From: Chloroflexota bacterium
Lineage (GTDB): Bacteria > Chloroflexota > Limnocylindria > P2-11E
NCBI GenBank assembly: GCA_038040345.1
Contig: JBBPIQ010000001.1
Coordinates: forward strand, 645,927 to 709,926
Reading direction: 5' to 3'
DNA: 64,000 nt
Position 1 is the stretch's first letter; every line of letters starts with the position of its first letter. This document shows positions 2,305 to 41,562 of this stretch, in pieces. Under the pieces are notes generated by a model that worked only from the letters and a program-made list of their open reading frames with translations, was not told the DNA's origin and made no database searches. The position numbers and the translations under genes are program-made.

Positions 2305-3054
2305 CTAGGTGTCCTCGACGGCGGACGCGCTGACAAATCGATAGCCGGCGCCCGGGACGGTCTCGATGTACCGAGGCTTATGCCAGTCGTTCTGAAGCTT
2401 CGCGCGCAGGGCTCGCACGTGCCGGTCCACGACGTTGCTCTCGATCACGAAGTCGGTGCCCCAAAGCGCGTCGAGGATCTGCTCGCGCGTGAGGGTGCTC
2501 CCGGCGTTGGCGGCGAGAAGGTAGAGGAGTGCCTGCTCGAGCGAAGTCAGGTGCAGCTCGTGCTCTCCGGCGAGCACCTTTCGGTTGAGAACGTCGATCT
2601 CGAGGTCGCCGATGCGCAGCCGCGGGACGAGCTCTCCGGCACTGCCATGTGTCCGACGAATAACGGCGCGTGCGCGCGCGACCAGGTCGTCCGGAACGAA
2701 AGGGATCCCGATGTAATCGTCCGCGCCTCGCTCGAAGGCGTCGAGCTTCCCTCGGAGATCGCTGCGGCGGGTGAGCGCGATCACGCCCATGGGCCCGTGA
2801 TTTCGCGCCTCGTCGACGAGCTGGATCCCGGCGCCGGCCTCGGTGTCGATGTCGACCAGCAGGAGATGGGGCTTCCAGTTCACGATCGAAGCCTTAGCGT
2901 CGTTGACGGTCTCTGTGATTCGGCGGAGGTAATGACCGTGCCGCAGGGTCAGGTCAATCGTGTTCGCCAGTGGCCTGTCACTGATGACCAGGAGCACGCG
3001 GGCCGCTCGCTCAGACCCTTTTGCGGGCGGCGCGGCCGCCCCAGCCTCTGCCAT
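2305..3054 (-). CDS. OmpR/PhoB-family response regulator with a winged-helix domain
   Basis: Receiver domain (RVLLVISDRP...LLLVDID) plus a winged-helix C-terminus (LTSLEQALLYLL...RHVRALRAKL...ETVPGAGYRF). Same strand as the kinase gene next to it. Confidence 0.85.
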   Translation of the reverse strand: MAEAGAAAPPAKGSERAARVLLVISDRPLANTIDLTLRHGHYLRRITETVNDAKASIVNWKPHLLLVDIDTEAGAGIQLVDEARNHGPMGVIALTRRSDLRGKLDAFERGADDYIGIPFVPDDLVARARAVIRRTHGSAGELVPRLRIGDLEIDVLNRKVLAGEHELHLTSLEQALLYLLAANAGSTLTREQILDALWGTDFVIESNVVDRHVRALRAKLQNDWHKPRYIETVPGAGYRFVSASAVEDT

Positions 3055-3063
3055 AACCCCATG

Positions 3064-3636
3064 TTAGGCCCCGCTGTTCTCGTAAATACGCACGCCGAGG
3101 TCGGTGCTTAGCGGGAGCGGCCAGCCAAGGGGATCGCGCCCGACCGCCCGGGGATCGTCGCCATAGCTGCCAAGGAGCACCAGGAGACCCGCGTGAGTGC
3201 CGACCGGCGCCCCGATCCACACCAAACCGACCGGGCGGCTGGCCCCTTGGTCCTCGACGGACCCCTCCGAGAGAGGCGGTCGAGGACGGCCGCCAGCATT
3301 GATACCAGATTCGGTCACGGCGAGGCGGAAGGACGAAGGCGGGCTCTGCGAGCGCTCGGTGATCCTCGGCCCGTAGTGCTTCGGGACTGCCCAGCTGGAG
3401 ACCAATGGTTCGAGAGCCGCGTGTTGCGCCGCATCGGTCTCGGTCGTTTCTCCCACGTGGACTGCCCTGAGCATCGCTACGTCGCGTTGGTCGTCGACGC
3501 TAGTCAGCAGAGGGATGGCGGGTTCGATGCCGTGCGGCGACTCCGCGACGATTCGCGCGGCGGCGCCGTCCACGTCCGCGGCGAGCAGCCGGAACTCCTC
3601 GAGCACGAAGAGATGGATGGGGTTATCGGTAGACAT
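3064..3636 (-). CDS. hypothetical protein; first gene of the putative operon containing the response regulator and histidine kinase
   Basis: A coherent 190-aa ORF with no obvious sequence bias. I chose the start at the internal Met MSTDNPIHLFVLEE. I recognise no domain. Confidence 0.35.
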   Translation of the reverse strand: MSTDNPIHLFVLEEFRLLAADVDGAAARIVAESPHGIEPAIPLLTSVDDQRDVAMLRAVHVGETTETDAAQHAALEPLVSSWAVPKHYGPRITERSQSPPSSFRLAVTESGINAGGRPRPPLSEGSVEDQGASRPVGLVWIGAPVGTHAGLLVLLGSYGDDPRAVGRDPLGWPLPLSTDLGVRIYENSGA

Positions 3637-3667
3637 GTCCCAAACCTTGACCCTCGGCGGCGTCCTT

Positions 3668-3763
3668 GTCATGACCTTGCCGTCACGCCACCGCTAAATG
3701 ACCGATTCGTCATGACTCGAGGCGCTCGCCTTCGTGTATGGGGGGTGACCGAACGGTCATGAC
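3668..3763. promoter_or_regulatory. three copies of the self-complementary 8-mer GTCATGAC (3668-3675, 3709-3716, 3756-3763) in the divergent intergenic region upstream of the ice-binding-like gene
   Basis: Read directly in the sequence: tgtcatgacc, cgtcatgact, ggtcatgaca. The motif has 50% GC, which makes it unusual in this GC-rich DNA. Candidate operator sites. Confidence 0.45.
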
Positions 3764-3837: not shown

Positions 3838-4836
3838 ATGAACAACTCAAGGGCAATCGTCGCTACGATCGGCATCGCGTTCGTCATTGCGATCGGCGCG
3901 ATGGCAGGCACCGCAGCAAATGCGGCAAACCCGCCCGTCGGCCTCGGAAGCGCCGCAACATACTCGGTGCTCGCCGGCACGCCATCCATCACGAACACTG
4001 GCGCCACCACCATCGACAGAGACGTCGGCATCCACCCCGCAGACTCGATCATAGGATTCCCGCCCGGAATTATCGGCGGAACAGTTCACGCGGGCGACGC
4101 CGTCGCGCTTCAGGCCAAGTCCGACCTCACTGTTGCTTACTTAGATGCGGCGGGCAGACCTGTGACGGCTAACCACTCAGCGCTCGGCGGGCTCACCCTC
4201 GTCGGCGGCGTGTACAACGCCAACGGCGCCACGCTCGGCCTCACGGGCACGCTCACACTCAATGGCCAGGGCGATCCGAACTCCGTCTGGATCTTCCAGG
4301 CCACGTCTGATCTCGTGACGGCATCGACGAGCTCCGTCGTGTTCATCAACGGCGGGAGCCCCTGCAACGTCTTCTGGCAGGTCACGAGCTCAGCGACTCT
4401 GGGATCGGGCTCTCACTTCGTTGGAACGATCCTGGCCCTGGACTCCATCACATTGGCCAATGGCGTCACCGTCAACGGCAGAGCGCTGGCACGGAATGGC
4501 CTGGTCAGTTTGATCAACGACACCTTCATCACGTCCACGTGCAACGCTGCCGCGCCGGTGGTCGTCCCCCCGGGGACGCGGCCACCGTTCACGCCCGGCC
4601 CGACCGCGACACCTGTGCCGGCGCCGATCACCACGTTCACTCCCGCTCCCGTGGTCGCACCCACGGCTGCACCAGTTGCCGCCGTTCCGACCGCTAAGCC
4701 TGCAGCAGTCGCCGGTACGCAACGGCTGCCATCGACGAGCACAAATGACCCGGCAGGTCCGCTCACGATGCTCGGCGTCGCACTGACCGGCATCGGGATC
4801 CTCCTGCTGCGCGGTCGAACGACTCGGCACCTTTAG
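3838..4836 (+). CDS. secreted ice-binding-family (DUF3494) protein with a Pro/Thr/Ala-rich linker and a C-terminal LPSTST + transmembrane + basic-tail sorting signal
   Basis: Signal peptide (IVATIGIAFVIAIGAMAG). The DUF3494 ice-binding-family motifs are present in order: GLGSAATYSVLAG, AYLDAAGRP, GGLTLVGGVY, VWIFQA, NVFWQV, HFVGTILAL...NGRALA. A ribosome-binding site agggag lies 8 nt upstream of ATG 3838. The C-terminus is QRLPSTSTNDPAGPLTMLGVALTGIGILLLRGRTTRHL. Confidence 0.8.
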   Translation: MNNSRAIVATIGIAFVIAIGAMAGTAANAANPPVGLGSAATYSVLAGTPSITNTGATTIDRDVGIHPADSIIGFPPGIIGGTVHAGDAVALQAKSDLTVAYLDAAGRPVTANHSALGGLTLVGGVYNANGATLGLTGTLTLNGQGDPNSVWIFQATSDLVTASTSSVVFINGGSPCNVFWQVTSSATLGSGSHFVGTILALDSITLANGVTVNGRALARNGLVSLINDTFITSTCNAAAPVVVPPGTRPPFTPGPTATPVPAPITTFTPAPVVAPTAAPVAAVPTAKPAAVAGTQRLPSTSTNDPAGPLTMLGVALTGIGILLLRGRTTRHL

Positions 4837-4919: not shown

Positions 4920-4949
4920 TGGCCGGGGTCCTTGGCCCAGGATTCAGAC

Positions 4950-5342
4950 ATGACAACCTCCCAACCAACAAAGACACCCGCCCCGGCACCGCCTCGTAGC
5001 TCGACGAGCGTGAACGTCCCGGCCGCACCCGCGCGAAACGCTTCGATGTGGACCGCGAGCCGCGTTATCGCGCTGGTGTTCACCGTCATCGAAGTGCTCT
5101 TGCTTGTTCGATTCACGTTCAAGCTTCTGGGAGCGAACGCGGATCAGCCGTTCGTGTCGGCGATCTATGGAATCACCGAGCCGCTCGTCGGCCCGTTCCG
5201 CGGCATCTTCGCCCAGCCCGCGGGCACGCCGGTCGTCGAGATCGCCGCGCTTCTCTCAATCGTCTTCTTCGTACTCGTCGCAGCCCTCATCGTCGCGCTG
5301 GTTCGCGCCTATACCGGCCGACGCGCCGTATCGAACCCGTGA
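4950..5342 (+). CDS. YggT-family membrane protein
   Basis: YggT/Ycf19 signature LLLVRFTFKLLGAN..QPFVSAIYGITEPLVGPFRGIF, followed by a transmembrane helix. ATG 4950 is preferred; the track begins at TTG 4932. Confidence 0.7.
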   Translation: MTTSQPTKTPAPAPPRSSTSVNVPAAPARNASMWTASRVIALVFTVIEVLLLVRFTFKLLGANADQPFVSAIYGITEPLVGPFRGIFAQPAGTPVVEIAALLSIVFFVLVAALIVALVRAYTGRRAVSNP

Positions 5343-5813: not shown

Positions 5814-6190
5814 AAACGCAGTGACTCCGAGCCTACTGTCGAGCGGTGCTAGATATCTGGTTCGTCGCCGGCATCGCGCTCGGCACCATCGTCACAGGCT
5901 TCTGCGCGATCGGCTCTTTCGATCGCGGTTCCGACAGCGTCCAGCGCCGGTCATGGAACCGCGAGCACGCCGCGCGCAAGCGCGCGCTCCTCGCCTCTCG
6001 CCCGACGATCCGCGCGACCGCTCAGCACACGCCTCCGGGAGCCATCCCCAAGGCGAGCTGACGCCCTTCGCAAGCAAGCGGTGCGTATGAGTTAGCGGCC
6101 CAATTCCGTATGACATCAGAGGAACGAAAGTGTGACGACGCACGCGGTAGTTCCGACGACGATGGACTCGGGAAGAGAAATGGAGTCGTC

Positions 6191-6646
6191 ATGAAATTCG
6201 CCGCGTTGATCGTCGCCGTCATCCTGATGGCGTTCGGTTCTAAACAAGTCGCTGCTGCTGACGTGAGCGTATGTGGCCAGCTCAATGCGTACCAGACCGC
6301 GACGTCGAAGGATGGCAAGCCGCAGAACACAATCCTGTCGCTCAAGACATCTTTGGGGTTCGTCGATTACCAGCTCGTGCTGAACGGAACGGTCCCCGCG
6401 GATCTGGCTCAGAATCCGGCGCTGCCGGAGATCCTCCAGCTAACGGGCCGCACCGTTGAGGGCATCAACACGGTCGCCGATTACACGGTCACGCGAGTCG
6501 CGTCATGTTCGTTGCCGAGCACGAGCACCGCCGCGGCGACGACGGACGCCGGTCTCTTTGGGTCGATCGCGAGCGCTCTAGCCGTCCTGTTCGCTTTCGC
6601 CGGCGCTCTCGTGACCGGCGTGAACCACCGGAAAGCCGCCTCGTAG
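6191..6646 (+). CDS. small secreted protein (151 aa) with a C-terminal LPSTST + transmembrane + basic-tail sorting signal
   Basis: Ribosome-binding site ggag 5 nt upstream of ATG 6191. Signal peptide MKFAALIVAVILMAFGSKQVAAA. The C-terminus is SCSLPSTSTAAATTDAGLFGSIASALAVLFAFAGALVTGVNHRKAAS, with the same LPSTST hexapeptide as the ice-binding-like protein. Confidence 0.6.
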   Translation: MKFAALIVAVILMAFGSKQVAAADVSVCGQLNAYQTATSKDGKPQNTILSLKTSLGFVDYQLVLNGTVPADLAQNPALPEILQLTGRTVEGINTVADYTVTRVASCSLPSTSTAAATTDAGLFGSIASALAVLFAFAGALVTGVNHRKAAS

Positions 6647-6733: not shown

Positions 6734-8188
6734 GTGGAAAGCACGCAGACGCAGGCGCCGACGGGCGCCGACGGTCGGCACGAACGCCAGCTGATCGCCG
6801 GTCGCTACCGGCTTGCGTCCTTTCATCGAGGCGACGAGACCACCGAGGTCTGGCGTGCGCTCGACGAATCCACCACCCAGGTCGTCAGTCTCGAGTTCTT
6901 GCGCGACTCCGATCCGGCGGGCAAGGAGCGCTTTCTCGCGGGAGGGCGCCGCTTGGCGTCGGTCCAGCAGCCGTCTGTCATGCGAGTGGCCGCGATCCAC
7001 GACGACCACGACGGGACCTTCATCGTGTTCGAGCACCTTGTCCACATACCCGTACCGCTCGAATGGCTGAAGCCGGCCGTCGAAGCGCCGCTGCCTCTTT
7101 TGAAGGTCGCCGAGCCGACGGCGATAGAGACGCCGCCGGTCGCGTCAGAGGCGGCGGAGCTCGCGGTCGCCGCCCCACCCGATCCCACGGCGGCACCCGG
7201 CGACCATGGACTCAGCTTGTTGCTCTTCGCGCTCCGCTCGCGGGAGCTTTCGCTCATCGACCAGGCTCTTTTACAGGAATCGGCGATCGAGTTCCTCGAC
7301 GTCGTTCTCGCCGAGTTCAAGGCGGTGCGGCTGGACCCAGACTTGGTGCCCGACGCCCGCTCCTTCGTGGTCTCGCTGCTCACGTCGGGGCCGAGACGCG
7401 CCGCCTCCGTCGTCGGGCGGATCGCGACGATTCGCCCGCGTTTCCGAATCGGGACTCCCCGCATGTCACAGCCCAAGCAACCGAAGCAACCCAAACAACC
7501 GAAGGCGGTCGCTGGCCCGTGGCTCAAAGAGACGCCCGTGGCGGAGGCCAAGCCCCTCAAAGTGCCGAAGATGAAGGAACCGCGCGCTCCCCGTGCCGCA
7601 CGCGGACCTGGCATGCGAATCCGGTGGGGCCGCGTGCTCACACGTGGTCTGACGCTCGGTGTCCTCGCGGCCATCCTGGTCTCGCTGCCCCCGGCGATCG
7701 TCGGGAACCTCGGGGGCGTCGCCAACAACGTCGCGAACGTCGCCGGCAACATCGCGGGCCAGGTCAGCTCGACCATCAGCGAGAAGCTCGCGTCGGTCCA
7801 GTCCACACCGGGGCTCCAGCGCGCCAGCTTCGAGCTTCCGCCGCTGAGCGCGTACGGCGCCGCGTTCGAGTCACAGGCCCCGTATCCCCATGCGAGTCCG
7901 AACGGGACGGTCGAGTGGGTCGTCGCGCTCCGCAACACCGGCTCCGTGGGCTGGTACCGCGGGATCGATGGCGCGCAAGCCTCGCTTGCCCTCGCCGACG
8001 GAACCACCGCAGGCGTGCAAACGACGGACTTCGTCGGGCCGGGTCAGCTGGGCTGGTTCGTCGTCCACTTCCCAGCGCCGTCGCAGGCGGGCACCTCGAA
8101 AGTCCGGCTTCTTCCTCGGATCGACGGTCGCGGGTCCCTGCCCGACCTCGGCATCTACGCCACGGTCACGGTGTCGCCGAACCCGTAG
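6734..8188 (+). CDS. membrane protein with a degenerate kinase-like N-terminus lacking the Gly-rich loop, a PKQ repeat linker, one transmembrane helix, and an extracytoplasmic C-terminal domain
   Basis: The N-terminus resembles the N-lobe of Hanks-type Ser/Thr kinases (RYRL...VVSLEFLRD...VMRVAAIHDDHDGTFIVFEHL) but has no glycine loop or catalytic motifs. There is a (QPK)x4 repeat and a TM helix LTLGVLAAILVSLPPAIVG. The overlapping ORFs 6700-8196 (+) and 6823-8007 (-) I judged artefacts. Confidence 0.5.
   Translation: MESTQTQAPTGADGRHERQLIAGRYRLASFHRGDETTEVWRALDESTTQVVSLEFLRDSDPAGKERFLAGGRRLASVQQPSVMRVAAIHDDHDGTFIVFEHLVHIPVPLEWLKPAVEAPLPLLKVAEPTAIETPPVASEAAELAVAAPPDPTAAPGDHGLSLLLFALRSRELSLIDQALLQESAIEFLDVVLAEFKAVRLDPDLVPDARSFVVSLLTSGPRRAASVVGRIATIRPRFRIGTPRMSQPKQPKQPKQPKAVAGPWLKETPVAEAKPLKVPKMKEPRAPRAARGPGMRIRWGRVLTRGLTLGVLAAILVSLPPAIVGNLGGVANNVANVAGNIAGQVSSTISEKLASVQSTPGLQRASFELPPLSAYGAAFESQAPYPHASPNGTVEWVVALRNTGSVGWYRGIDGAQASLALADGTTAGVQTTDFVGPGQLGWFVVHFPAPSQAGTSKVRLLPRIDGRGSLPDLGIYATVTVSPNP
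7469..7504 (+). repeat. tandem 9-bp repeat encoding (PKQ)x4
   Basis: The sequence reads cagcccaagcaaccgaagcaacccaaacaaccgaag. Confidence 0.5.
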
Positions 8189-18836: not shown

Positions 18837-18979
18837 CTCGATCTTTGTTGCGCGCGAGATGTCACCGACGCGTGCTGGGGAGCATCAGCATCGGGGCGCG
18901 CGGGGTCGGTCGTCAAACGACGGTTATGTCTCTGCATCGTCTTTGCGCGAGGTTTGATGCCGCCGATCGGACGTGCTCG

Positions 18980-19972
18980 ATGAAAATGCGACCCATGGCA
19001 CGCGGGACGCTCTTCGCGGTCGCGCCGTTCGCACTCGTCGCCGCACTCGCGATGGGTGTGGCGCTCGTAGGATTCGTCGTGAGCCCGCGTGCTCCATCCG
19101 AACCGGCCGGATTGGCGACAACGGCATCCCCGACCGAAGTCGCGATCTCGGCGACTCCCGAGGCGACGGCGTCACCGAGCTCTGCTCCATCAACCGCTGC
19201 GGCGACGATGGGTCCGAAGTCGAACGACTCGGCCGAGATGCTCCGTGTGCACAACGAGCTTCGCGCCGCGATCGGCGCGCCGGCGGTGCGCGGCGACGAC
19301 CGCGTGACGGCAGCGGCGCAGCGCCACGCGGAGTACCTCGCGCGCGCCGGCGCCATCGGGCACGACGAGACAGCGGGGCAGCCCGGGTTCACAGGCGCGT
19401 CCGTTCGCGATCGCCTGGCCGCTCAGGGCTACGCCGACGCGACAGCGAGCGAGGTGGCGGCATCGTCCGACTCCGGGACCGAGGACGTGCACTTTCTCTG
19501 GGATCTTCCGTACCACCGCCTCGGGCTCATGCATCCGCACGCGGCGATCGCGGGATGGGGCCACGCCGAGATCGGTGGCCACACCGCGACGGTCGGCGTC
19601 CTCGTGTTCGACTTCGGGGCCGCCGCACCCGAACGCGTGCGGTCGCCCGCGGCGGGCCAGCGCGTGACGGGATCGTGGGCCGGCGACGAGACCCCCGATG
19701 CGCTCCCCACGGGCGCGGCCCGCCCGGTCGGATACCCGGTGATGATCGTGTACTCGCGCGCGCCGTCCGTCGATCTGAAGAGCGCGAAGCTGACCGATGC
19801 GAGCGGACGCGACGTCGCGGTGTCGGTCGTCCCGCAGATCTACGAGCGCGACTACGCCGGCATCGTGCCGACGGCCCCTCTGGCCGCTGGCGGGCGTTAT
19901 CGCGTGCGGTTCGAGCTCACGGTCGCGGGGAGCGATGTCGTGGACGAGTGGGAGTTCGAGACCGAGCCCTAG
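18980..19972 (+). CDS. secreted CAP-domain (SCP/PR-1-like) protein
   Basis: N-terminal TM/signal segment, a Ser/Thr/Ala-rich linker, then a CAP core (MLRVHNELRAA...AAAQRHAEYLARAGAIGHDE...HRLGLMHP). Confidence 0.65.
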   Translation: MKMRPMARGTLFAVAPFALVAALAMGVALVGFVVSPRAPSEPAGLATTASPTEVAISATPEATASPSSAPSTAAATMGPKSNDSAEMLRVHNELRAAIGAPAVRGDDRVTAAAQRHAEYLARAGAIGHDETAGQPGFTGASVRDRLAAQGYADATASEVAASSDSGTEDVHFLWDLPYHRLGLMHPHAAIAGWGHAEIGGHTATVGVLVFDFGAAAPERVRSPAAGQRVTGSWAGDETPDALPTGAARPVGYPVMIVYSRAPSVDLKSAKLTDASGRDVAVSVVPQIYERDYAGIVPTAPLAAGGRYRVRFELTVAGSDVVDEWEFETEP

Positions 19973-20660: not shown

Positions 20661-21587
20661 TCAGGTGCCGGATAGCTCCTTGACGACCGGTGCGAGCTCC
20701 TCAACGTGCGGCCCGCGTACGCAGAAGTAGGTGATGCCGGTCTCGCGCCGCACGCGAAGGATGTGTTCGCGTACCTGGTCGAGCGTCCCAATAGGGCGAT
20801 AGACGGACGACCCGACCACCGCCGGATCGGCCTTCGCCTTCTCGGCGAACTCGGCGATCGTCTTGTCCCGGTCATCGGTGAGCGCGACGTCGAGGAAGCA
20901 GCTCAGCTCGATCTCTTCGAAGCGTCGGCCGGCGGCCTGGCGAACGATGTCGAGCTGCCTGCGCACGCCCGCGGCCGCGACGTCGTCGGGCGCGGGCGGC
21001 CGAACTCCCGCACCGGGCGGGATGACCGCGACGATCTCGGCCTCGCGTCCGGCGAGCTCGAGTATTTGCGGACCGCCGGCCGCGATGAGGATCGGAGGCC
21101 GCGGCTGTTGCACGGTCTTTGGCCGGCACTCCGACTTCACCGTCCGGTAGTACGTCCCCTCGAAGCTCACCTCATCCTCGGTGAAGACGCGCTTCATCAG
21201 CGTCACCGCTTCGGCGAGACGCGCGACGCGGACGCGGCCCCGCTCGAACGGAATGCCCGTGCTCTGGTAATCGCGGTCGAACCAGCCCGCTCCGAGCCCG
21301 ATCTCGACGCGTCCGTTCGAGATGATGTCGAGCGTCGCGAACTCGCGCGCAAGCACGACGGGGTTGCGGAAGTCGTTGTCCAGCACGAGGTTGCCGAGGC
21401 GGAGCGTGGTCGTGACCGCTGCCGCCGCGCCGAGCGCCGGCATGTTGCTCCACGCGCCGCCCACCATGTGATCGGGCATTGAGAGCGTTGCGTAACCCAT
21501 GCCTTCGATGCGCTTCGCGCGCGCCAGCCAATCCGCACCCGTCGGCTGCCCGCCGCTCTGTGTCGAGAATCGGATCTTTCGTGTCAC
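20661..21587 (-). CDS. luciferase-like monooxygenase (LLM) class flavin/F420-dependent oxidoreductase
   Basis: TIM-barrel LLM motifs (GRVEIGLGAGW, ILIAAGGPQ). Confidence 0.75.
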   Translation of the reverse strand: MTRKIRFSTQSGGQPTGADWLARAKRIEGMGYATLSMPDHMVGGAWSNMPALGAAAAVTTTLRLGNLVLDNDFRNPVVLAREFATLDIISNGRVEIGLGAGWFDRDYQSTGIPFERGRVRVARLAEAVTLMKRVFTEDEVSFEGTYYRTVKSECRPKTVQQPRPPILIAAGGPQILELAGREAEIVAVIPPGAGVRPPAPDDVAAAGVRRQLDIVRQAAGRRFEEIELSCFLDVALTDDRDKTIAEFAEKAKADPAVVGSSVYRPIGTLDQVREHILRVRRETGITYFCVRGPHVEELAPVVKELSGT

Positions 21588-21597
21588 GACGCCGAGC

Positions 21598-22689
21598 CTA
21601 CGTTCTCATGAATTCCGCGAGGAGTCGGTGGAAATGGTGCACGCCGCCTTCGCGGGCTGGGGAGTATCGGCCGCGGTCGTAGAGGCGCGAGCGCACGCCG
21701 CGCTGGACCGACTCGACGACCGCCTCGTCCTCGCGCTCCACGCGATCGAGACCAGCGCCCGCGCCGGTCTCGCGCTTTGTCGCGTCCCACACGAACGGGA
21801 GGAACGAGACACGCGTGCGGTCGACGGCCAGGGGCGTGACGACGTTCACTGACACGCCCCACGGGTAGACGTTGAACATCGTCGTCGGGAAGAGCCAGTA
21901 GTAGTAGGCAGCGACGGCGCGCCCGCGATCGGGGTGGGACTGCGGAAGCGCGAACGCGGGCTCGCCGGGCTTCGCGATCCCGAGCTGCACGACCGAATAG
22001 CGCTCTAGCTCGACGGCGTACTCGCCGTAGTCGAGGGTCGTCGCGAGACTCGAGTGCACGTACGGGATGTGGAAGCCCTCGAGGTAGTTGTCGAGGTACA
22101 GAGCCCAGTTCGCGTTCACGAAGTAATCGCGCGCGCCGCCGGCGTCATAGACGAGCTCAGCGAACGGCAGCGTCTCGAGCCGCGTGCGCATCGGTGAGAC
22201 GAGGTCGTCGAACGGCATCGCGGGAGCGAGCGACACCATGAGGAAGCGCGTCCACGTCCCGAGCGACACCGGCGGCAAGTCGTCCGACGGCGATGGAAAG
22301 TTCGCCGTCTGCTCGAACTCGGGCATCGAGTGAAAGCGGCCGTCGAGCGTGAAGCGGCGGCCGTGGTACCGGCAGCGCAGCTGCTGCTCGTGACCCGGGC
22401 CCTCGACGACGAGCGTCCCGCGATGCGTGCACACGTTCGAAACGCAGTGGACCTGATCCGTCTGATCTCGCGTGAGCAGAAGCGGCTCGTCGAGCGCGCC
22501 GGGGAGCAGCGTGAACGGATGGACCTGGCCGGCGACCTTCACGAGGTCGTCGTGACCGGCGTAGTGCCACGTGCGCGCGAAGAGACGATCGCGCTGGAGC
22601 CGGAAGATCTCGGGATCGGAGTAGACGCGCGCTGGAAGCGTGCGCGCCACGCGGATGTCGGGGTCGATCTCGAACAGCGCATCGCCCAT
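21598..22689 (-). CDS. Rieske [2Fe-2S] non-heme-iron oxygenase alpha-subunit-like protein
   Basis: Rieske motif CSNVCTHRG...CRYHGRRF, followed by a catalytic-domain-like C-terminus. Confidence 0.8.
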   Translation of the reverse strand: MGDALFEIDPDIRVARTLPARVYSDPEIFRLQRDRLFARTWHYAGHDDLVKVAGQVHPFTLLPGALDEPLLLTRDQTDQVHCVSNVCTHRGTLVVEGPGHEQQLRCRYHGRRFTLDGRFHSMPEFEQTANFPSPSDDLPPVSLGTWTRFLMVSLAPAMPFDDLVSPMRTRLETLPFAELVYDAGGARDYFVNANWALYLDNYLEGFHIPYVHSSLATTLDYGEYAVELERYSVVQLGIAKPGEPAFALPQSHPDRGRAVAAYYYWLFPTTMFNVYPWGVSVNVVTPLAVDRTRVSFLPFVWDATKRETGAGAGLDRVEREDEAVVESVQRGVRSRLYDRGRYSPAREGGVHHFHRLLAEFMRT

Positions 22690-22700
22690 CGCGGGCGATG

Positions 22701-23951
22701 CTAGCTATTGGCTCTGGCCACCCTCGCGAGCGTCGACACGAGCTCGAGCTGATCGCGAAGATCGCGAGTGATCAGGAAGTTCTCGCGCACGTGCTCGCGT
22801 CCCGCGGCGGCCATGCGCTTACGGAGCGCGGGATCGCGCAAGAGGTCGAGGCACCGTGCGGCGCACTCCTGGGGGCTCGTCACGAGATACCCGGAGACGC
22901 CGTCCTGGATCTGGATGACGATGCCGCCGACCTTGCCCGCGACGACCGGTATTCCCTTCCAGAGCGCTTCGGCGACGACGAGGCCGAATCCTTCGCGCAG
23001 CGACTTCTGGATCACGATCTCCGACGCGCGCTGGAACGCGTTCACCTCGCGGTCCTTGACGCCGTCGAGATTCGTGAAGAGGAAGACATCGGGGTCCCCG
23101 CCCGCGTGCTTCTTCGTACGGTCGAAGTACTCCTGGCCCTCGGGATCGTCGTCGGCGAGCGAGCCGATCATCACGAGCTGGACGGCGGGCACCTCTTTCT
23201 TGACGAGGCGGTACGCGTCGATGACGCCGAGAGGGTCCTTCCATGGATCGAAGCGCGAGACCTGCAGAAGGATCGGCCGGGCCGGATCCACGCGGAACTT
23301 CCGGACGACCTCACGCGCTTCGTCGATCGGCATGTCGCGGTTCTTCTCGGAGAACGGGTCGATCGTCGGCGCCTGGATGAGCACCTTCTGCTTGAGGTCA
23401 GGTCGCACGAACCCCGGCATCGTCCAGATCGACGCGTCGTGCTCTTCCACGAACGGCTTGAGGAAAGACCACACCGGTTGATGCGCGGCCGTGAGATCGA
23501 TGTGGCAGCGCCATACCCATCCGGCCCGGTCGGGATCCTTTGCGAAGTGGCGGAGCGCCACCGCTTGCGGGTCGTGCGCGAGGACGACGTCGGCGTCGGT
23601 GAGCTGCGCTGCGTTCTCTCGCGCGACGTCGAGGAAGAGCTTCTTCTCCGTGTCCGAGAGGTCGAGCTTCATTCCCTGGAGCGCGTTATGGATCTTCTTG
23701 GTGATGTCGTAGAACGCGGCCGGCGCGTCGAGGACGGCCCAGTGCGCGTCCACGCCCGCATCCCTGAGGAGCGGGACGAGGTTTTGTAAAATCTCCGCGA
23801 CTCCACCGCCGTATGCGGTCGCGTTGATGTGGAGCATGCTGCGGCCCTTCGCGGCCTTCGCGAGCGTTCGCAGCTGCTCGTACCGCTCGTCGCCGATGAC
23901 CTTGGCGTAGTCGGCAAGGCGCTTGTTGGCGGTAATCGGTACCGCGTGCAC
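22701..23951 (-). CDS. GT4 glycosyltransferase, TreT-like (NDP-glucose-dependent trehalose synthase family)
   Basis: N-terminus HINATAYGGGVAEILQNLVPLLRDAGVDAHWAV, and C-terminal GT-B motifs EGFGLVVAEALWKGIPVVAGKVGG. These match trehalose glycosyltransferring synthase-type GT4 enzymes. Confidence 0.7.
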   Translation of the reverse strand: MHAVPITANKRLADYAKVIGDERYEQLRTLAKAAKGRSMLHINATAYGGGVAEILQNLVPLLRDAGVDAHWAVLDAPAAFYDITKKIHNALQGMKLDLSDTEKKLFLDVARENAAQLTDADVVLAHDPQAVALRHFAKDPDRAGWVWRCHIDLTAAHQPVWSFLKPFVEEHDASIWTMPGFVRPDLKQKVLIQAPTIDPFSEKNRDMPIDEAREVVRKFRVDPARPILLQVSRFDPWKDPLGVIDAYRLVKKEVPAVQLVMIGSLADDDPEGQEYFDRTKKHAGGDPDVFLFTNLDGVKDREVNAFQRASEIVIQKSLREGFGLVVAEALWKGIPVVAGKVGGIVIQIQDGVSGYLVTSPQECAARCLDLLRDPALRKRMAAAGREHVRENFLITRDLRDQLELVSTLARVARANS

Positions 23952-29842: not shown

Positions 29843-30535
29843 TCAAGGCGGGGTTGGGAAATCGAGGACGACCCGGAAGGGTCCGGCGAGCTCGGTCACC
29901 TTCGGGCACGCGAGGTGGTCGAGGCCGACGCCCCAGAGCAGCACTCGCTCGAAGTCCTCGACGATCTTGACCTCTTTGATGAGCGGCGTCGTCGGCTTTA
30001 TGTCGTTGCTCCCGGTGTAGCTCGGCGTGCCATTCGGGTTTTGGGTCGAGGCGTTCTGGAACCGCGTCCCGAAGAGCGCGTTGCCGACGATCGTGACCGG
30101 CTGCCCGCTCGGCCCGGAGAGCGAGGTCGCGGTCTCGACGGTGTAGGCCGGCATGCCGAAAGGCCCGGGCGCGGTGCTCTGACCGAACTCGAAGACGAGG
30201 CGATCGAAGCCGGGCTGGTGCGCCACCCGCACCGCGACCAGCTGGGCCTGGTTGCTCGCGTTCCCGCCGGTCGTCCGAGGGCACGCCGCAGCGGGCGTGG
30301 ATCCCGGGCTTGCGGTTGCGGTCGGGACGGTCGTCGGAGAGCTGGTCGGTCGAGCAGTCGCCGTCGCGATCGGCGGGACCGAGGCCGTCGCCGTGGGGCT
30401 CGCTGACCGGGAAGCGGACGCAGTCGGGGTCGCCGTCGGCGACGAGGCCACGTCCGGTTGGGGCCCACACGCGCTCACGACCACTATGCCGAGGGCCAGG
30501 GCCAGCGCCCCGTAGATAATCAAGCGTCCAAACAT
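29843..30535 (-). CDS. hypothetical lipoprotein with a Ser/Thr/Pro/Ala-rich linker
   Basis: Internal start MFGRL was checked (cat at 30533-30535). Lipobox VVVSAC. The C-terminal domain of about 130 aa is of unknown function. Confidence 0.5.
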   Translation of the reverse strand: MFGRLIIYGALALALGIVVVSACGPQPDVASSPTATPTASASRSASPTATASVPPIATATARPTSSPTTVPTATASPGSTPAAACPRTTGGNASNQAQLVAVRVAHQPGFDRLVFEFGQSTAPGPFGMPAYTVETATSLSGPSGQPVTIVGNALFGTRFQNASTQNPNGTPSYTGSNDIKPTTPLIKEVKIVEDFERVLLWGVGLDHLACPKVTELAGPFRVVLDFPTPP

Positions 30536-30646
30536 CTGACCCAAAGCCTGCGGGACTAACGCAACGCTGTCGAGTTCGTCGACAAGCAGCCGAGCGTTCT
30601 GTACGAAGTCCGTCCGGGACACCATTTTTGGTAAAATGCATCTCGA

Positions 30647-32812
30647 GTGGCCGATCGCCTGCGATTGGCGCTGGTGTTTCACCAGCACCAGCCGGCCGGG
30701 AATTTCCCGTCAGTCTTCCAGGATGTGACCGAGCGGGCGTACGCCCCCCTCGTGGCCACCCTCTATCGGCACCCCGAAGTAAAGGCCAGCCTTCACTTCT
30801 CGGGGCCGCTCCTCGATTGGCTGGAAGCCAACCGCCCAGACGTCATCGGGGACCTCTCCGACCTGGTCCGAAGGGGTCAGATAGAGCTCCTCTCCGGGGG
30901 CTATTACGAGCCGGTTCTGGTCGGTGTGCCTCGGCGCGACGGCGTCGCCCAGATTCGGGCGCTTTCCGATCGGGTTCACGCGATCTTCGGACAGCGCCCG
31001 TTGGGCGCATGGCTGACCGAGCGGGTGTGGGAGCCCCACCTCCCGTCTCTCCTCGCCGAAGCGGGAGTCGCGTACACGGTCCTCGATGACGAGCACTTCC
31101 TCCAGGCGGGACTCCGCCCGCAGGAGCTCGGCGAGTCGTACGTCACGGAAGACCAGGGCCTTCCGGTCATCGTCTTCCCCGGAAGCGTGAAGCTCCGCTA
31201 CCTCATCCCGTTCCGCGACGTGAGCGCAACGATGAAGGAGCTCCGCGCCCGAGCCGACGAGGGCGCGCGTCTCGTCGTCTATGCGGATGACGGCGAGAAG
31301 TTCGGCGGCTGGCCGGGCACCTACCAGCGCGTGCACAAGGACGGCTGGCTCGAGCAGTTCTTCTCGGCGATCGCGCAGGCCGACTTCATCCAGACGACGA
31401 CGCTCGAAGACGCCTGGGTCTTCCAGAAGCCCGCGCGGCGTATCTACATCCCATCCGGGTCGTATCCCGAGATGGCTGAGTGGGCACTTGAGCCGAACGC
31501 TGCGAAGCGGTACCAGCAGGCGCGGAACAAGCTCGGCGACGAGTCTTCAGCGCTCGTTGCCGCTCCGCTCTGGCGGAACTTCCTCGCGAAATACCCTGAA
31601 TCCAACGCCCTCCACAAGCGGATGCTCATCGTCAGCGAGGAGCTCGCGCGCCGCAGCATCCTCGACGCATCGGCCGAGGTCCGTCAGGCGCAGCAGAACC
31701 TGTGGCGCGCACAGGGCAACGACGTGTACTGGCATGGCGTCTTCGGCGGCATCTACTTCCCGCACCTTCGTGCCGACGCGTACGCCTCCCTGCTGAAGGC
31801 AGAACGGATCCTGTCGGAGCGGCGCACCGCGGCCGGCGAGCAGCGCGACTACGACGTCGACGGCTACGACGAATACATCTTCCGTGGGAACGCGGGTGCC
31901 GTGTTCGTGCACGTCCAGGGCGGCGCCGTCATCGAGTGGGACATCTACGCGTCGGCGACCAACCTCGTCGACACCCTCGCGCGCCGGCCGGAGGCCGAGC
32001 ACGAAGCGCTGCGTCGCGCCGAAAAACTCGGCAAGGTCCTCGTCGGCAAGGCAGCAGAAAAAGAGTCGAAGTCCATCCACGAGGCCGTGCGCGCACGGGA
32101 GCGCGGCCTCTCGAAGCTTCTCGAATACGACGTCGCGCGCCGCGCGTTCTTCCAGGACAGCTTCCGCGTCGGAAAGGCCGAGCCGGTCGTGCTGCACGCG
32201 TACTACTACCAGCTCACCCCGCAGCGCGAGGCGCGCACCGTGAGCCTCATCCTCGAGCCGCCGCCGCGCTCTCTCGCGAGCGTTCCCGGCCTCGGGATCC
32301 GCAAGGACATCCGCATCGCCGACGAAGGGCTCGCCGCTGGCGTCCGCTACCGCCTTCGCAACGACGGCGAGGAAGCGATAAGTCTCCAGTTCACCAGCAC
32401 GTCGAACATCGGTCTGCTTTCCGAGCAGAACCCGGCCGACGTGATCACGGTCGGCACGCGGAAGACGACCGCGGGAAAGCCGATCGACGCGCGGCATGTG
32501 TCAGAAATCGCCGTTCACTCGGAATCGAAGCACTTTGACATCGCAATTGCTATCGATCCGCCGTGCGAGGTGACGACACGGCCGATCTACTCGATCACCA
32601 ACTCCGAGCAGGGCTTCGAACGCGTCTATCAGCAGTTGGAGATCGCCTCGATGTGGAACGTCACCATCGAGCCCGACGCCCATGTCGACCTCGAGGTGCG
32701 CGCGACCGCGGTCGGCCAGATGGTCGAGCCGGACGCCGTTCGTCCGACGGCTCGGCGCCGCAAGGCCGCGGCTGGCGCGAGCGCGGAAACGGCGAGGGCT
32801 CCGCGGAGGTAA
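30647..32812 (+). CDS. GH57-family alpha-glucan-active enzyme (4-alpha-glucanotransferase / amylopullulanase-like)
   Basis: Classic GH57 start LALVFHQHQP. The catalytic region and 721-aa size fit GH57 glucanotransferase-like enzymes. Confidence 0.75.
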   Translation: MADRLRLALVFHQHQPAGNFPSVFQDVTERAYAPLVATLYRHPEVKASLHFSGPLLDWLEANRPDVIGDLSDLVRRGQIELLSGGYYEPVLVGVPRRDGVAQIRALSDRVHAIFGQRPLGAWLTERVWEPHLPSLLAEAGVAYTVLDDEHFLQAGLRPQELGESYVTEDQGLPVIVFPGSVKLRYLIPFRDVSATMKELRARADEGARLVVYADDGEKFGGWPGTYQRVHKDGWLEQFFSAIAQADFIQTTTLEDAWVFQKPARRIYIPSGSYPEMAEWALEPNAAKRYQQARNKLGDESSALVAAPLWRNFLAKYPESNALHKRMLIVSEELARRSILDASAEVRQAQQNLWRAQGNDVYWHGVFGGIYFPHLRADAYASLLKAERILSERRTAAGEQRDYDVDGYDEYIFRGNAGAVFVHVQGGAVIEWDIYASATNLVDTLARRPEAEHEALRRAEKLGKVLVGKAAEKESKSIHEAVRARERGLSKLLEYDVARRAFFQDSFRVGKAEPVVLHAYYYQLTPQREARTVSLILEPPPRSLASVPGLGIRKDIRIADEGLAAGVRYRLRNDGEEAISLQFTSTSNIGLLSEQNPADVITVGTRKTTAGKPIDARHVSEIAVHSESKHFDIAIAIDPPCEVTTRPIYSITNSEQGFERVYQQLEIASMWNVTIEPDAHVDLEVRATAVGQMVEPDAVRPTARRRKAAAGASAETARAPRR

Positions 32813-40825: not shown

Positions 40826-41562
40826 TCGGCGGCCCCGATGCCCACCGCAAGCTCCTCTTCGGCGCGGCGCGGGCGCGGGACGAGCTCGTCGCGGGCGATG
40901 AGACCGTCGCGCATGCGCACGACGCGTTTGCAATGCGCGGCGACGTCAGGCTCGTGCGTGACCATGACGACGGTCTTACCCAGGTCGTTGAGCCGCTGGA
41001 AGATCGACAGGATCTCCGCGCTCGAGCGCGAGTCGAGATTCCCTGTCGGCTCGTCCGCGAGGATCATCGAGGGGTCGTTGAGGAGCGCGCGAGCGATCGC
41101 GACGCGCTGCTGCTGACCGCCGGAGAGCTCGCTGGGCCGGTGATGGATCCGGTCGCCGAGGCCGACCTGCTCGAGCGCGGCCAGCGCGCGCTGGCGCCGC
41201 TCTTTGCGATCGCCGCCGTAGATGAGTGGAAGCTCGACATTCTCGATCGCGTTCAGTCGCGAGAGCAGGTTGTACGTCTGAAATACGAAGCCGACGTGCT
41301 TATTGCGGATCGAGGCGAGCTGATCGTCGGAGAGCTTGTTGACGTTCTCGCCGGCGAGGATGTACGTGCCGCCGTCGGCGACGTCGAGGCAGCCGAGGAC
41401 ATTCATGAGCGTCGACTTCCCCGACCCCGACGGGCCCATGATCGCCAGGAACTCCGCGGGCCGGACGTCCAGGTCCACTCCGCGCAGCGCGTTCACGGTG
41501 ATGTCCCGCCCGATGCGGTACGTCTTGGTGATCCCGCGGAGCTGGACGACGCTTTGGATCAT
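40822..41562 (-). CDS. ABC transporter ATP-binding protein (MacB/LolD family)
   Basis: Walker A GPSGSGKST, signature LSGGQQQRVAIARAL, Walker B ILADEPTGNLD. Confidence 0.9.
   Translation of the reverse strand: MIQSVVQLRGITKTYRIGRDITVNALRGVDLDVRPAEFLAIMGPSGSGKSTLMNVLGCLDVADGGTYILAGENVNKLSDDQLASIRNKHVGFVFQTYNLLSRLNAIENVELPLIYGGDRKERRQRALAALEQVGLGDRIHHRPSELSGGQQQRVAIARALLNDPSMILADEPTGNLDSRSSAEILSIFQRLNDLGKTVVMVTHEPDVAAHCKRVVRMRDGLIARDELVPRPRRAEEELAVGIGAAE

What the first reader, a model, noticed from the sequence alone, without database searches (positions are those of the whole stretch)
3838..4836. Secreted DUF3494 ice-binding-family protein with a non-canonical LPSTST cell-surface sorting signal
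The DUF3494 ice-binding-family motifs are all present (GLGSAATYSVLAG, AYLDAAGRP, GGLTLVGGVY, VWIFQA, NVFWQV, NGRALA). The protein ends in a tripartite signal: LPSTST, a ~17-aa hydrophobic segment, and a basic tail (RGRTTRHL). This has the architecture of a sortase substrate, but Ser replaces the canonical Gly of LPXTG. A 50-aa Pro/Thr/Ala-rich stalk precedes it, which would project the ice-binding domain from the cell surface. Together with the TreT-like trehalose synthase 18 kb away, this suggests a cold-adaptation repertoire.
Basis: partly seen in the sequence, partly recalled or inferred. Interest (0 to 1): 0.8.

Follow-up and report, generated by a model that had tools for sequence, protein, structure and literature searches.

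The report
Surface-anchored ice-binding-family protein, LPSTST signal
A soil Chloroflexota (Limnocylindria) bacterium encodes a secreted ice-binding-family protein on a flexible stalk, ending in a lineage-wide variant (LPSTST) of the Gram-positive LPXTG cell-wall anchoring signal; the variant is real and appears undescribed, but the enzyme that reads it and any role in cold tolerance are unproven.

Summary
It has a signal peptide and a DUF3494 domain (PF11999, E=9e-56). The AlphaFold model of that domain matches the Antarctic ice-binding protein EfcIBP (45% identity, rmsd 1.1 Å). A disordered ~60-aa Pro/Thr/Ala stalk follows, then LPSTST, a membrane helix and a basic tail.

The tail is a genuine, modular sorting domain:
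- It is kept in 118 of 120 homologues.
- It recurs on an unrelated small secreted protein 1.7 kb downstream.
- It recurs on more than 100 other secreted proteins, most without any Pfam hit, from Limnocylindria MAGs and metagenome contigs I take to be soil.
- The extended consensus is VAG[VT]Q-x-LPST[S/N/G]T, with L lying 35-37 residues from the C-terminus.

The isolated tail scores just above the curated cut-off of the LPXTG-anchor model (17.0 vs 15.9 bits). NCBI and JGI already label some relatives as LPXTG proteins. It is therefore a lineage-specific variant of a known signal.

No sortase gene appears in the window or in about 0.95 Mb of related loci, but the whole genome could not be searched. 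The "cold-adaptation repertoire" reading is unsupported: the TreT gene is real but unlinked, and DUF3494 proteins occur in many environments.

The parts
3838..4836 (+). Whole gene: 332-aa secreted, surface-anchored DUF3494 (ice-binding family) protein. Identical to NCBI MEK6225314.1, 'MAG: ice-binding family protein [Chloroflexota bacterium]'.
3838..3924 (+). Sec-type signal peptide, residues 1-29 (MNNSR / hydrophobic core / TAANA|AN). The cleavage site is inferred.
   Evidence: Read from the sequence. AF2 predicts a helix at 4-22. Alignment to the crystallised EfcIBP chain begins at residue 30. No signal-peptide predictor was available.
3928..4533 (+). DUF3494 / IBP-1 fold domain, residues 31-232: a beta-solenoid with one long flanking alpha-helix (88-105).
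   Evidence: PF11999 E=9.4e-56. PDB 6eio E=1.2e-45. pLDDT >90. Foldseek to 6EIO: 45% identity, rmsd 1.1 Å, and 31 IBP structures at E<=1e-3.
4543..4725 (+). Pro/Thr/Ala-rich disordered stalk, residues 236-296. It ends in the conserved VAGTQR that precedes the motif.
   Evidence: 67% P+T+A. pLDDT <50. Conservation of V-A-G-[VT]-Q.
4726..4743 (+). LPSTST motif, residues 297-302, the LPXTG-equivalent core of the sorting signal.
   Evidence: L, P and T invariant in 118 homologue tails. Position 5 is S 108, N 9, G 1. Position 6 is T 116.
4759..4809 (+). Hydrophobic membrane-spanning segment, residues 308-324.
   Evidence: AF2 helix 309-325. Conserved in homologues.
4810..4833 (+). Basic C-terminal tail RGRTTRHL, residues 325-332.
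4932..5342 (+). YggT-family membrane protein gene. It is the constant downstream neighbour of the IBP gene in every Limnocylindria-type locus read. Its functional link to the IBP is unknown.
   Evidence: PF02325. Synteny.
6191..6646 (+). Second protein with the same signal: 151 aa, signal peptide, no Pfam or NCBIfam hit, ending in CS-LPSTST-AAATTDAG + TM + HRKAAS. The longest ORF starts at 6110.
   Evidence: Eight homologues keep LP[ST]T[SG]T + TM + basic tail.
2305..3672 (-). Conserved upstream neighbours: an OmpR-type response regulator (2305-3054) and a ~200-aa protein with no family hit (3064-3672). A histidine kinase lies at 968-2122. This is context only.
   Evidence: Synteny.

Best explanation
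The gene encodes a cell-surface display protein of a monoderm soil bacterium of the class Limnocylindria (Chloroflexota).

Proposed pathway:
1. The Sec signal peptide (residues 1-29) exports the protein.
2. The ~200-residue DUF3494 beta-solenoid is held away from the cell on a ~60-residue unstructured Pro/Thr/Ala stalk.
3. The C-terminal ~40 residues (VAGTQR-LPSTST-NDPAGPL, a hydrophobic helix, RGRTTRHL) act as a sorting domain. The helix and basic tail stop transfer and hold the precursor in the membrane.
4. The LPSTST motif is then presented to a membrane-bound sortase-type cysteine transpeptidase. This enzyme cleaves after Thr300 and joins the protein to the cell wall.

LPSTST is this lineage's standard form of LPXTG. 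The P1' glycine is replaced by Ser (Asn, Gly, Gln or Ala in relatives), and P2' is fixed as Thr.

Shown here: the domain architecture, the fold, conservation of the tail, and its modular reuse on many unrelated secreted proteins.

Inferred: signal-peptide cleavage, cleavage at LPST|S, wall attachment, and the identity of the enzyme.

What the solenoid binds is not known. Ice is the best-documented ligand for the family, and the closest solved relative is an active ice-binding protein, so freeze-thaw protection in soil is the leading guess. Adhesion to another surface is equally allowed by the data.
For: Architecture and fold:
- PF11999 at 189 bits.
- phmmer to EfcIBP 6eio, E=1.2e-45.
- AF2 pLDDT >90 over residues 31-230.
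- Foldseek top 31 hits are all DUF3494 ice-binding proteins.

The tail is under selection:
- 118 of 120 homologues at 60-100% identity keep LP-x-T-x-T + TM + basic residues.
- The distance from L to the C-terminus is 35-37 residues in 114 of those tails.

The tail is modular:
- It is on an unrelated small protein in the window and on that protein's 8 homologues.
- A tail profile finds 68 cluster representatives at E<=1e-3 among 1.84 billion. Many are unrelated signal-peptide proteins with no Pfam hit.
- 126 tails were found in 80 metagenome loci, on proteins of up to about 1100 aa with long Thr/Gly/Ser-rich regions.

The tail is of the LPXTG kind:
- TIGR01167 scores 17.0-32.2 bits on isolated tails, against a cut-off of 15.9.
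- NCBI names two such proteins 'LPXTG cell wall anchor domain-containing protein' in Limnocylindria/Chloroflexota. JGI does the same for many.
- Orthologous tails swap S, N and G at position 5, including true LPSTG and LPATG.

Ser or Asn at P1' is compatible with sortase chemistry:
- S. pyogenes SrtA accepts LPXTS in vitro and was crystallised with LPATS (PMC9520033).
- S. agalactiae has natural LPXTS and LPXTN proteins, and the LPXTN protein ScpB depends on SrtA (PMC8225981).

Lineage: 8 of 10 genome loci carrying the tail are titled Limnocylindria or Chloroflexota/Chloroflexi.
Against: - No sortase was found. No ORF with a TLxTC-type signature, and no phmmer hit to S. aureus SrtA, turned up in the window or in 106 related loci (0.95 Mb, highly redundant, essentially three genomic contexts).
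- The whole IBP protein did not report TIGR01167 at E<=0.1. The isolated window tail passes by only 1.1 bits.
- Pfam PF00746 does not reach its cut-off on any tail tested.
- The conserved part of the signal is longer than a sortase pentapeptide (VAGVQ upstream; [DGN][DE]P..PL downstream). That is more typical of the dedicated sorting domains read by other enzyme families.
- Ice binding itself is untested. DUF3494 proteins also occur outside cold habitats (PMC12337378).
Confidence: 0.6

Rival explanations
1. The LPSTST domain is read by a different, non-sortase sorting enzyme specific to this lineage. Precedents are the exosortase, archaeosortase, rhombosortase and myxosortase systems, each of which pairs a short motif + TM + basic tail with its own membrane protease. 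The outcome could be lipid or glycan attachment, or release, rather than peptidoglycan linkage.
For: - The conserved signal is about 25 residues longer than a pentapeptide and strikingly uniform.
- No sortase lies near more than 100 tail-bearing genes.
- Weak sub-threshold matches of some tails to MYXO-CTERM and PEP-CTERM models. JGI labels one such protein MYXO-CTERM.
- A polytopic HTTM/SdpB-like membrane protein lies directly downstream of one tail-bearing family in about 30 loci. From my own knowledge, B. subtilis SdpB is needed to mature a secreted peptide.
Against: - The best and only above-threshold match is the LPXTG anchor model.
- Position-5 variants include G, giving canonical LPSTG/LPATG in orthologues.
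- The 35-37-residue spacing equals that of LPXTG signals.
- The HTTM gene accompanies only one cassette type. It is absent from the window and from all IBP loci.
- Housekeeping sortases are normally unlinked to their substrates, so their absence nearby is uninformative.
Confidence: 0.2
2. The tail is not processed at all. The protein stays as a C-terminally membrane-anchored (type I) surface protein. LPSTST is conserved for another reason, such as an O-glycosylation or hinge site at the membrane-proximal end of the stalk.
For: - A TM helix plus a positive-inside tail is enough for anchoring.
- The motif is Ser/Thr-rich and sits at the end of a Pro/Thr stalk, or of Thr/Gly/Ser-rich regions that look like glycosylation substrates.
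- No processing enzyme was identified.
Against: - The invariant L and P, together with the fixed distance to the C-terminus across unrelated protein families, are hard to explain by glycosylation alone.
- The tail matches the LPXTG model.
Confidence: 0.15
3. As to function: the solenoid is an adhesin or substrate-binding module rather than an ice binder. The gene has nothing to do with cold.
For: [quoted passage not shown]
- The gene is a syntenic, apparently core gene in many MAGs and metagenome contigs. From my own recollection of the sample prefixes, these come mostly from temperate soils.
- The score against the curated ice-binding equivalog NF045625 is 72 bits, against a cut-off of 400.
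Against: - 45% identity and 1.1 Å rmsd to EfcIBP. From my own knowledge, EfcIBP has measured ice-recrystallisation-inhibition activity.
- All 31 significant structural matches are proteins deposited as ice-binding or antifreeze proteins.
- Soils do freeze and thaw.
Confidence: 0.4

Closest known systems
EfcIBP (PDB 6EIO) and the DUF3494 / IBP-1 fold ice-binding proteins (FfIBP, ColAFP, IBPv, AnpIBP, TisAFP, LeIBP)
   Same: Same Pfam family and same fold: a beta-solenoid braced by one long helix. 45% identity and rmsd 1.1 Å over 203 columns to EfcIBP. Secreted through an N-terminal signal peptide.
   Different: Those proteins are free, lipoprotein-anchored or multi-domain, and come from polar organisms. 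This one carries a Pro/Thr/Ala stalk and an LPXTG-type wall-sorting tail, and comes from a Chloroflexota lineage that I take to be soil-dwelling. No paper in the searched library holds both 'DUF3494' and 'sortase'. Ice binding is untested here.
LPXTG cell-wall sorting signal read by sortases (classes A-F; TIGR01167 / PF00746)
   Same: Tripartite layout, position about 35 residues from the C-terminus, invariant L, P and T, and a score above the TIGR01167 cut-off. The carriers are secreted proteins with low-complexity stalks.
   Different: - P1' is Ser (or Asn) instead of Gly as the rule rather than the exception.
- P2' is fixed as Thr.
- Conserved flanks: VAGVQ upstream and [DGN][DE]P..PL downstream.
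- PF00746 is below threshold.
- The cognate sortase was not found.
Known P1' variants: class D LPXTA, SrtB NPQTN, and the LPXTS/LPXTN proteins of Streptococcus agalactiae
   Same: They show that sortases can use Ala, Asn or Ser at P1' (PMC8225981, PMC9520033).
   Different: In streptococci these are rare exceptions among LPXTG proteins. Here LPSTST is the dominant form across a class-level lineage, and the host belongs to a different phylum.
Dedicated variant sorting-domain models in NCBIfam (LPxTATN NF058670, GVDTG NF058571, LAXTG small protein NF058583) and PEP-CTERM, MYXO-CTERM and similar domains
   Same: The same idea: a lineage-specific short motif + TM + basic tail that marks many unrelated secreted proteins.
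   Different: None of these models reaches its cut-off on the LPSTST tails. No dedicated model for LPSTST showed up in NCBIfam release 20.

Membership tests
DUF3494 / Ice_binding (Pfam PF11999) | Profile HMM score above the gathering cut-off | tested here: met
   189.2 bits against 28.7, residues 48-229, model positions 4-206 of 208
DUF3494 / Ice_binding (Pfam PF11999) | IBP-1 fold: beta-solenoid with one long alpha-helix packed alongside | tested here: met
   AF2 pLDDT >90 over residues 31-230, helix 88-105. Foldseek to 6EIO: TM(target) 0.87, rmsd 1.1 Å. 7bwy: TM 0.93.
DUF3494 / Ice_binding (Pfam PF11999) | Binds ice (thermal hysteresis, recrystallisation inhibition) | not testable with these tools
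   Needs recombinant protein.
NCBIfam NF045625 IBP_CFB (ice-binding protein equivalog) | Score above the curated cut-off of 400 bits | tested here: not met
   72.4 bits. A family relative, not this equivalog.
LPXTG-type cell-wall sorting signal (sortase substrate) | Pentapeptide LPXTG | tested here: not met
   LPSTS: Gly is replaced by Ser. Gly appears at this position in only a few orthologues.
LPXTG-type cell-wall sorting signal (sortase substrate) | Motif followed by a hydrophobic segment and a basic tail at the extreme C-terminus | tested here: met
   Residues 297-332. L lies 36 residues from the end. Helix 309-325. RGRTTRHL.
LPXTG-type cell-wall sorting signal (sortase substrate) | TIGR01167 LPXTG_anchor score above the curated cut-off (15.9 bits) | tested here: inconclusive
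   17.0 bits on the isolated 52-aa tail, and 22-32 bits on homologues' tails. Not reported when the whole protein was scanned at E<=0.1.
LPXTG-type cell-wall sorting signal (sortase substrate) | Pfam PF00746 Gram_pos_anchor above 20 bits | tested here: not met
   No hit for the window tail. 7-19.8 bits for other tails.
LPXTG-type cell-wall sorting signal (sortase substrate) | N-terminal secretion signal on the same protein | tested here: met
   An n/h/c-region with AXA is seen in the sequence. AF2 helix 4-22. Alignments to the crystallised relatives start at about residue 30. No dedicated predictor was run.
LPXTG-type cell-wall sorting signal (sortase substrate) | A sortase (PF04203; His-Cys-Arg, TLxTC) encoded in the same genome | not testable with these tools
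   None in the 64-kb window or in 0.95 Mb of related loci. The remaining ~1.1 Mb of the contig and the rest of the MAG could not be fetched.
LPXTG-type cell-wall sorting signal (sortase substrate) | Cleavage between Thr and the P1' residue, and amide linkage to peptidoglycan | not testable with these tools
   A biochemical feature.
Other C-terminal sorting domains (PEP-CTERM, MYXO-CTERM, LPxTATN, GVDTG, JDVT, Loki-CTERM) | Model score above the curated cut-off | tested here: not met
   All below cut-off. The best is MYXO-CTERM at 16.1 against 20, and LPxTATN at 12.6 against 32.

The most novel reading that the evidence does not exclude
VAGVQ-x-LPSTST-..PL + TM + RR is the recognition domain of a sorting system of Limnocylindria that has not been described. 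Its processing enzyme is either not a sortase, or is a sortase class with a new extended specificity. This system displays a large, fast-evolving repertoire of mucin-like surface proteins, including the ice-binding-family protein. The HTTM/SdpB-like membrane protein next to some substrates would be one candidate partner.
Probability: 0.2. Interest if true: 0.7.

Novelty: new variant of a known kind. Interest (0 to 1): 0.4.

Why it matters
Limnocylindria are, from my own knowledge, an uncultured class of Chloroflexota that is abundant in soil. Almost nothing is known about their cell surface.

- A uniform, easily searchable C-terminal tag (LPSTST, 35-37 residues from the end) defines their surface proteome from sequence alone.
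- That tag gives a handle for finding the sorting enzyme by phylogenetic profiling.
- It would justify a dedicated annotation model. At present the window protein is annotated only as 'ice-binding family protein', with its anchor unrecognised.
- It is also an example of a DUF3494 protein covalently or stably displayed on a monoderm cell surface. That bears on whether such proteins work by keeping the cell attached to ice, or by conditioning its immediate surroundings.
- If the enzyme is a sortase that prefers LPSTS, it could add an orthogonal specificity to sortase-ligation chemistry.

The gain is incremental, not a change of concept.

Tried and rejected
1. Fetching the window's own contig. 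The look-up of encoding contigs has no record of the exact protein, so the rest of the 1.19-Mb contig could not be read.

2. Looking for a sortase.
- A TLxTC-type regex and phmmer with S. aureus SrtA were run over the window and 106 loci. Nothing was found.
- The loci fall into only three syntenic contexts: the IBP-yggT locus, the aminotransferase-cassette-regulator locus, and one other. This is therefore not evidence of absence from the genome.
- I had no Chloroflexota sortase seed. The homology tools list only the best 120 hits, so a foreign sortase query would not have reached this lineage.

3. Neighbours of tail-bearing genes as candidate processing enzymes.
- The ~315-aa gene between two tail genes is a Ser/Thr protein kinase.
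- The 505-aa membrane protein is HTTM/SdpB-like. It accompanies only one cassette type and is absent from IBP loci.
- I rejected it as the general partner but recorded it.

4. Pfam on ten non-IBP tail proteins gave no domains, apart from one probable chimeric ketoacyl-synthase fragment. The large cassette proteins gave none either.

5. AlphaFold of the second LPSTST protein gave mean pLDDT 43 and was unusable, so no fold search was made.

6. Literature. There were no papers with LPSTS + sortase, DUF3494 + sortase, or Limnocylindria + sortase. The four Chloroflexota + sortase papers looked irrelevant from their titles and abstract openings; I did not open them.

They were rerun with narrower alignments.

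8. I considered horizontal transfer of the IBP gene. Its GC3 of 0.76 compares with 0.74-0.90 for the other predicted genes in the window, at the low end of that range but not outside it. Synteny is conserved across relatives, so I did not pursue it.
Full report
**1. What is there**

ORF 3838-4836 on the + strand starts with ATG and encodes 332 residues. LPSTST is at 297-302, the hydrophobic stretch PLTMLGVALTGIGILLL at 308-324, and RGRTTRHL at 325-332. The segment between the folded domain and the motif (residues 236-296) is 61 residues long and is 67% Pro+Thr+Ala.

The same protein is in NCBI as MEK6225314.1, 'MAG: ice-binding family protein [Chloroflexota bacterium]', on a 1.19-Mb contig. 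A 94%-identical protein is assigned to Candidatus Limnocylindria. The window is 63-70% G+C throughout. The gene's third-position G+C (0.76) lies within the range of the other predicted genes, at its low end.

**2. The folded domain**

- Pfam PF11999 (Ice_binding/DUF3494) matches at E=9.4e-56, 189 bits against a cut-off of 28.7, and covers almost the whole model.
- By sequence, the best solved relative is 6EIO at E=1.2e-45, followed by about two dozen other ice-binding or antifreeze proteins. From my own knowledge, 6EIO is EfcIBP, from a bacterium of an Antarctic ciliate consortium.
- An AlphaFold2 model built on 41 homologues has pLDDT above 90 for residues 31-230. It drops below 50 for 238-307 and shows a helix at 309-325.
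- Foldseek against the PDB returns 31 hits at E<=1e-3, all DUF3494 ice-binding proteins. The top hit is 6EIO, at 45% identity and rmsd 1.1 Å.
- The curated NCBIfam ice-binding equivalog NF045625 is far below its cut-off (72 against 400 bits).

The protein is therefore a member of the broad family and not of that particular orthologous group.

**3. The C-terminal signal is real and modular**

*Conservation in homologues.* Among the 120 closest homologues (60-100% identity), 118 end in LP-x-T-x-T, a hydrophobic segment and basic residues.
- L, P and the first T are invariant.
- Position 3 is S (107) or A (9).
- Position 5 is S (108), N (9) or G (1).
- Position 6 is T (116).
- The distance from L to the C-terminus is 35-37 residues in 114 of them.

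Conservation extends beyond the hexapeptide, to V-A-G-[VT]-Q upstream and [DGN]-[DE]-P-x-x-P-L downstream.

*A second protein in the window.* A second ORF 1.7 kb downstream (6191-6646 +) encodes a 151-residue protein with a signal peptide, no family hit, and the ending CS-LPSTST-AAATTDAG + hydrophobic segment + HRKAAS. Its eight database homologues keep LP[ST]T[SG]T + TM + basic tail, although the rest of the tail differs from the IBP tail. Two LPSTST occurrences in the six-frame translation compare with 0.02 expected.

*Other carriers.*
- A 40-column profile of tails from both families, searched against 1.84 billion cluster representatives, gave 68 hits at E<=1e-3.
- Besides IBP fragments, these are signal-peptide proteins of 90-490 residues. 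They are built from shuffled modules without Pfam hits, and all end in ...VAGVQ[SN]LPSTST..PLAALGLA.MALGG.LLRRR.
- A scan of one genome per species found 10 loci with such tails. Eight are titled Limnocylindria or Chloroflexota/Chloroflexi, one Chloroflexi, and one Saccharimonadales. The last is in the same synteny and is probably a binning error.
- A metagenome scan gave 80 loci with 126 tails of the forms LPSTST, LPSTNT, LPSTQT and LPSTAT. They sit on proteins of up to about 1100 residues with very long Thr/Gly/Ser-rich regions, often two or three in tandem.

The signal is a lineage-wide tag.

**4. What kind of signal**

- Scanned alone, the window tail scores 17.0 bits on TIGR01167 (LPXTG_anchor, cut-off 15.9). 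Homologues' tails score 22-32 bits.
- Every other sorting-domain model (MYXO-CTERM, PEP-CTERM, LPxTATN, GVDTG, JDVT, Loki) stays below its cut-off.
- When the whole protein was scanned, the model was not reported at E<=0.1. This is probably why NCBI's name omits the anchor.
- Pfam's PF00746 stays below 20 bits.
- NCBI names two short proteins with this tail 'LPXTG cell wall anchor domain-containing protein' in Limnocylindria/Chloroflexota. JGI uses 'LPXTG-motif cell wall-anchored protein' for many.
- Orthologues occasionally carry true LPSTG or LPATG.
- The literature shows that Ser and Asn are workable P1' residues. S. pyogenes SrtA accepts LPXTS in vitro and was crystallised with LPATS poised for attack (PMC9520033). 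S. agalactiae has natural LPXTS and LPXTN proteins, and the LPXTN protein ScpB depends on SrtA (PMC8225981).
- No paper in the searched library combines LPSTS with sortase, DUF3494 with sortase, or Limnocylindria with sortase.

I conclude that the tail works like an LPXTG signal and is its lineage-specific variant. Strict membership is only borderline: the pentapeptide test is not met, one of the two profile models passes only just, and the other fails.

**5. The missing enzyme**

I found no sortase-like ORF in the window or in any of 106 related loci, 0.95 Mb in all. I looked for a His ... [TS]LxTC ... Arg signature and for a phmmer hit to SrtA.

This is weak evidence. The loci are highly redundant and represent three contexts:
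- (a) response regulator - 190-aa protein - IBP - yggT;
- (b) aminotransferase - one to three tail-bearing genes - a ~1100-aa cyclase/AAA/TPR regulator;
- (c) one divergent IBP locus.

Housekeeping sortases are usually unlinked to their substrates. Neither the rest of the contig nor the rest of the MAG could be fetched.

In context (b) there is often a Ser/Thr kinase. In about 30 loci a 505-aa polytopic HTTM/SdpB-like protein lies directly after one tail-bearing family. It is absent from the window and from the IBP loci, so I do not take it as the general partner. It is nevertheless the only membrane-enzyme candidate seen.

**6. Function of the displayed domain**

The closest characterised relatives bind ice. 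That is the best-supported guess, and freeze-thaw stress is relevant in soil. Against a specific 'cold repertoire':
- The TreT-type trehalose synthase is real (22701-23951 -, PF21269). But it sits 18 kb away beside a Rieske oxygenase and a luciferase-like monooxygenase. From general knowledge, trehalose synthesis is a general stress trait.
- DUF3494 proteins are reported as putative ice-binding or substrate-binding proteins from a wide range of environments (PMC12337378).
- The gene is a syntenic, seemingly core gene of many soil MAGs.
- The one constant partner is a YggT-family membrane protein gene immediately downstream. It is present even where the wider context differs. Its meaning is unknown.
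- In one relative a second, tandem DUF3494 paralogue lacks the anchor. In others the locus holds only a ~70-aa remnant with the sorting tail, and similar short proteins that keep an IBP-type signal peptide plus the tail appear among the representatives.

**7. Verdict**

The structural interpretation is supported. The sortase reading is the most likely one but remains unproven (about 0.6). The ecological interpretation is not supported.

The find is a new, lineage-wide variant of a known kind of signal, attached to a new member of a known protein family. Interest is moderate (0.4). It would rise substantially only if the processing enzyme turned out not to be a conventional sortase. I put that at about 0.2.

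Noticed in passing
window 4932-5342 (+); also L001, L002, L004, L007, L099, L101: A YggT-family membrane protein gene (PF02325) directly follows the IBP gene in every Limnocylindria-type locus read. This holds even where the flanks differ, and even where the IBP is duplicated or reduced to a 70-aa remnant. It suggests a functional pair or an operon.
   Followed up: partly
window 6191-6646 (+): A small secreted protein of 151 aa with no family hit carries the same LPSTST + TM + basic tail. It is present at this position in L099 but absent in L001 and L002, so it is a variable insert between yggT and the 484-aa gene. The AlphaFold model was unusable (pLDDT 43).
   Followed up: yes
L035, L048, L054, L057, L059, L071 and about 70 other metagenome loci; L010-L017 in genomes: A hypervariable surface-protein cassette lies between an aminotransferase gene and a ~1100-aa guanylate-cyclase/AAA/TPR regulator. 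It holds one to three LPSTST/LPSTNT-tailed proteins of 200-1100 aa, built from shuffled modules without Pfam hits, with very long Thr/Gly/Ser or Ala/Gln-rich regions. A Ser/Thr protein kinase is often among them.
   Followed up: partly
L102 2672-4198 (+); homologues in about 30 loci, e.g. L048 4196-5704 and L071 6965-8458: A polytopic HTTM-domain protein lies about 150-250 bp downstream of one family of LPSTST-tailed giant proteins. It matches PF05090 and is SdpB-like (TIGR04033, 70 bits, below the cut-off of 178). It is a possible processing or modification partner, but it is not found in the window.
   Followed up: partly
L101 6710-6922; proteins P0130, P0131, P0135, P0146: Short genes of 70-130 aa join an IBP-type signal peptide, or a few N-terminal residues, directly to the LPSTST tail. 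In L101 one sits exactly where the IBP gene normally lies. These are either internal deletions of the solenoid or assembly artefacts.
   Followed up: no
L007 11175-12098: A tandem second DUF3494 paralogue of 307 aa lacks the LPSTST anchor. It ends in a Gly/Asn-rich, charged tail instead. The lineage therefore has both anchored and free forms.
   Followed up: partly
window 22701-23951 (-), 21598-22689 (-), 20661-21587 (-): A TreT-type trehalose synthase (PF21269 + GT1) is adjacent to a Rieske ring-hydroxylating oxygenase alpha subunit and a luciferase-like monooxygenase. There is no visible link to the IBP locus.
   Followed up: partly
window 3064-3672 (-) and 6734-8188 (+): Two conserved syntenic genes (~200 aa and 484 aa) have no Pfam or NCBIfam hit. 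The ~200-aa gene always sits between the response regulator and the IBP gene. The C-terminal ~130 residues of the 484-aa protein are nearly identical across relatives.
   Followed up: no
L014 (contig DATJHW010000013.1): This contig is titled Candidatus Saccharimonadales. It carries the Limnocylindria-type aminotransferase - LPSTST protein arrangement, with a tail 70% identical to the query. It is probably a binning error in the MAG.
   Followed up: no
window 18845-19972 (+), 29843-30688 (-), 41559-43457 (-): Other predicted envelope proteins in the window: a CAP/SCP-domain protein, an AMIN-like domain protein and an HlyD-type membrane-fusion protein. None has an LPSTST tail.
   Followed up: no
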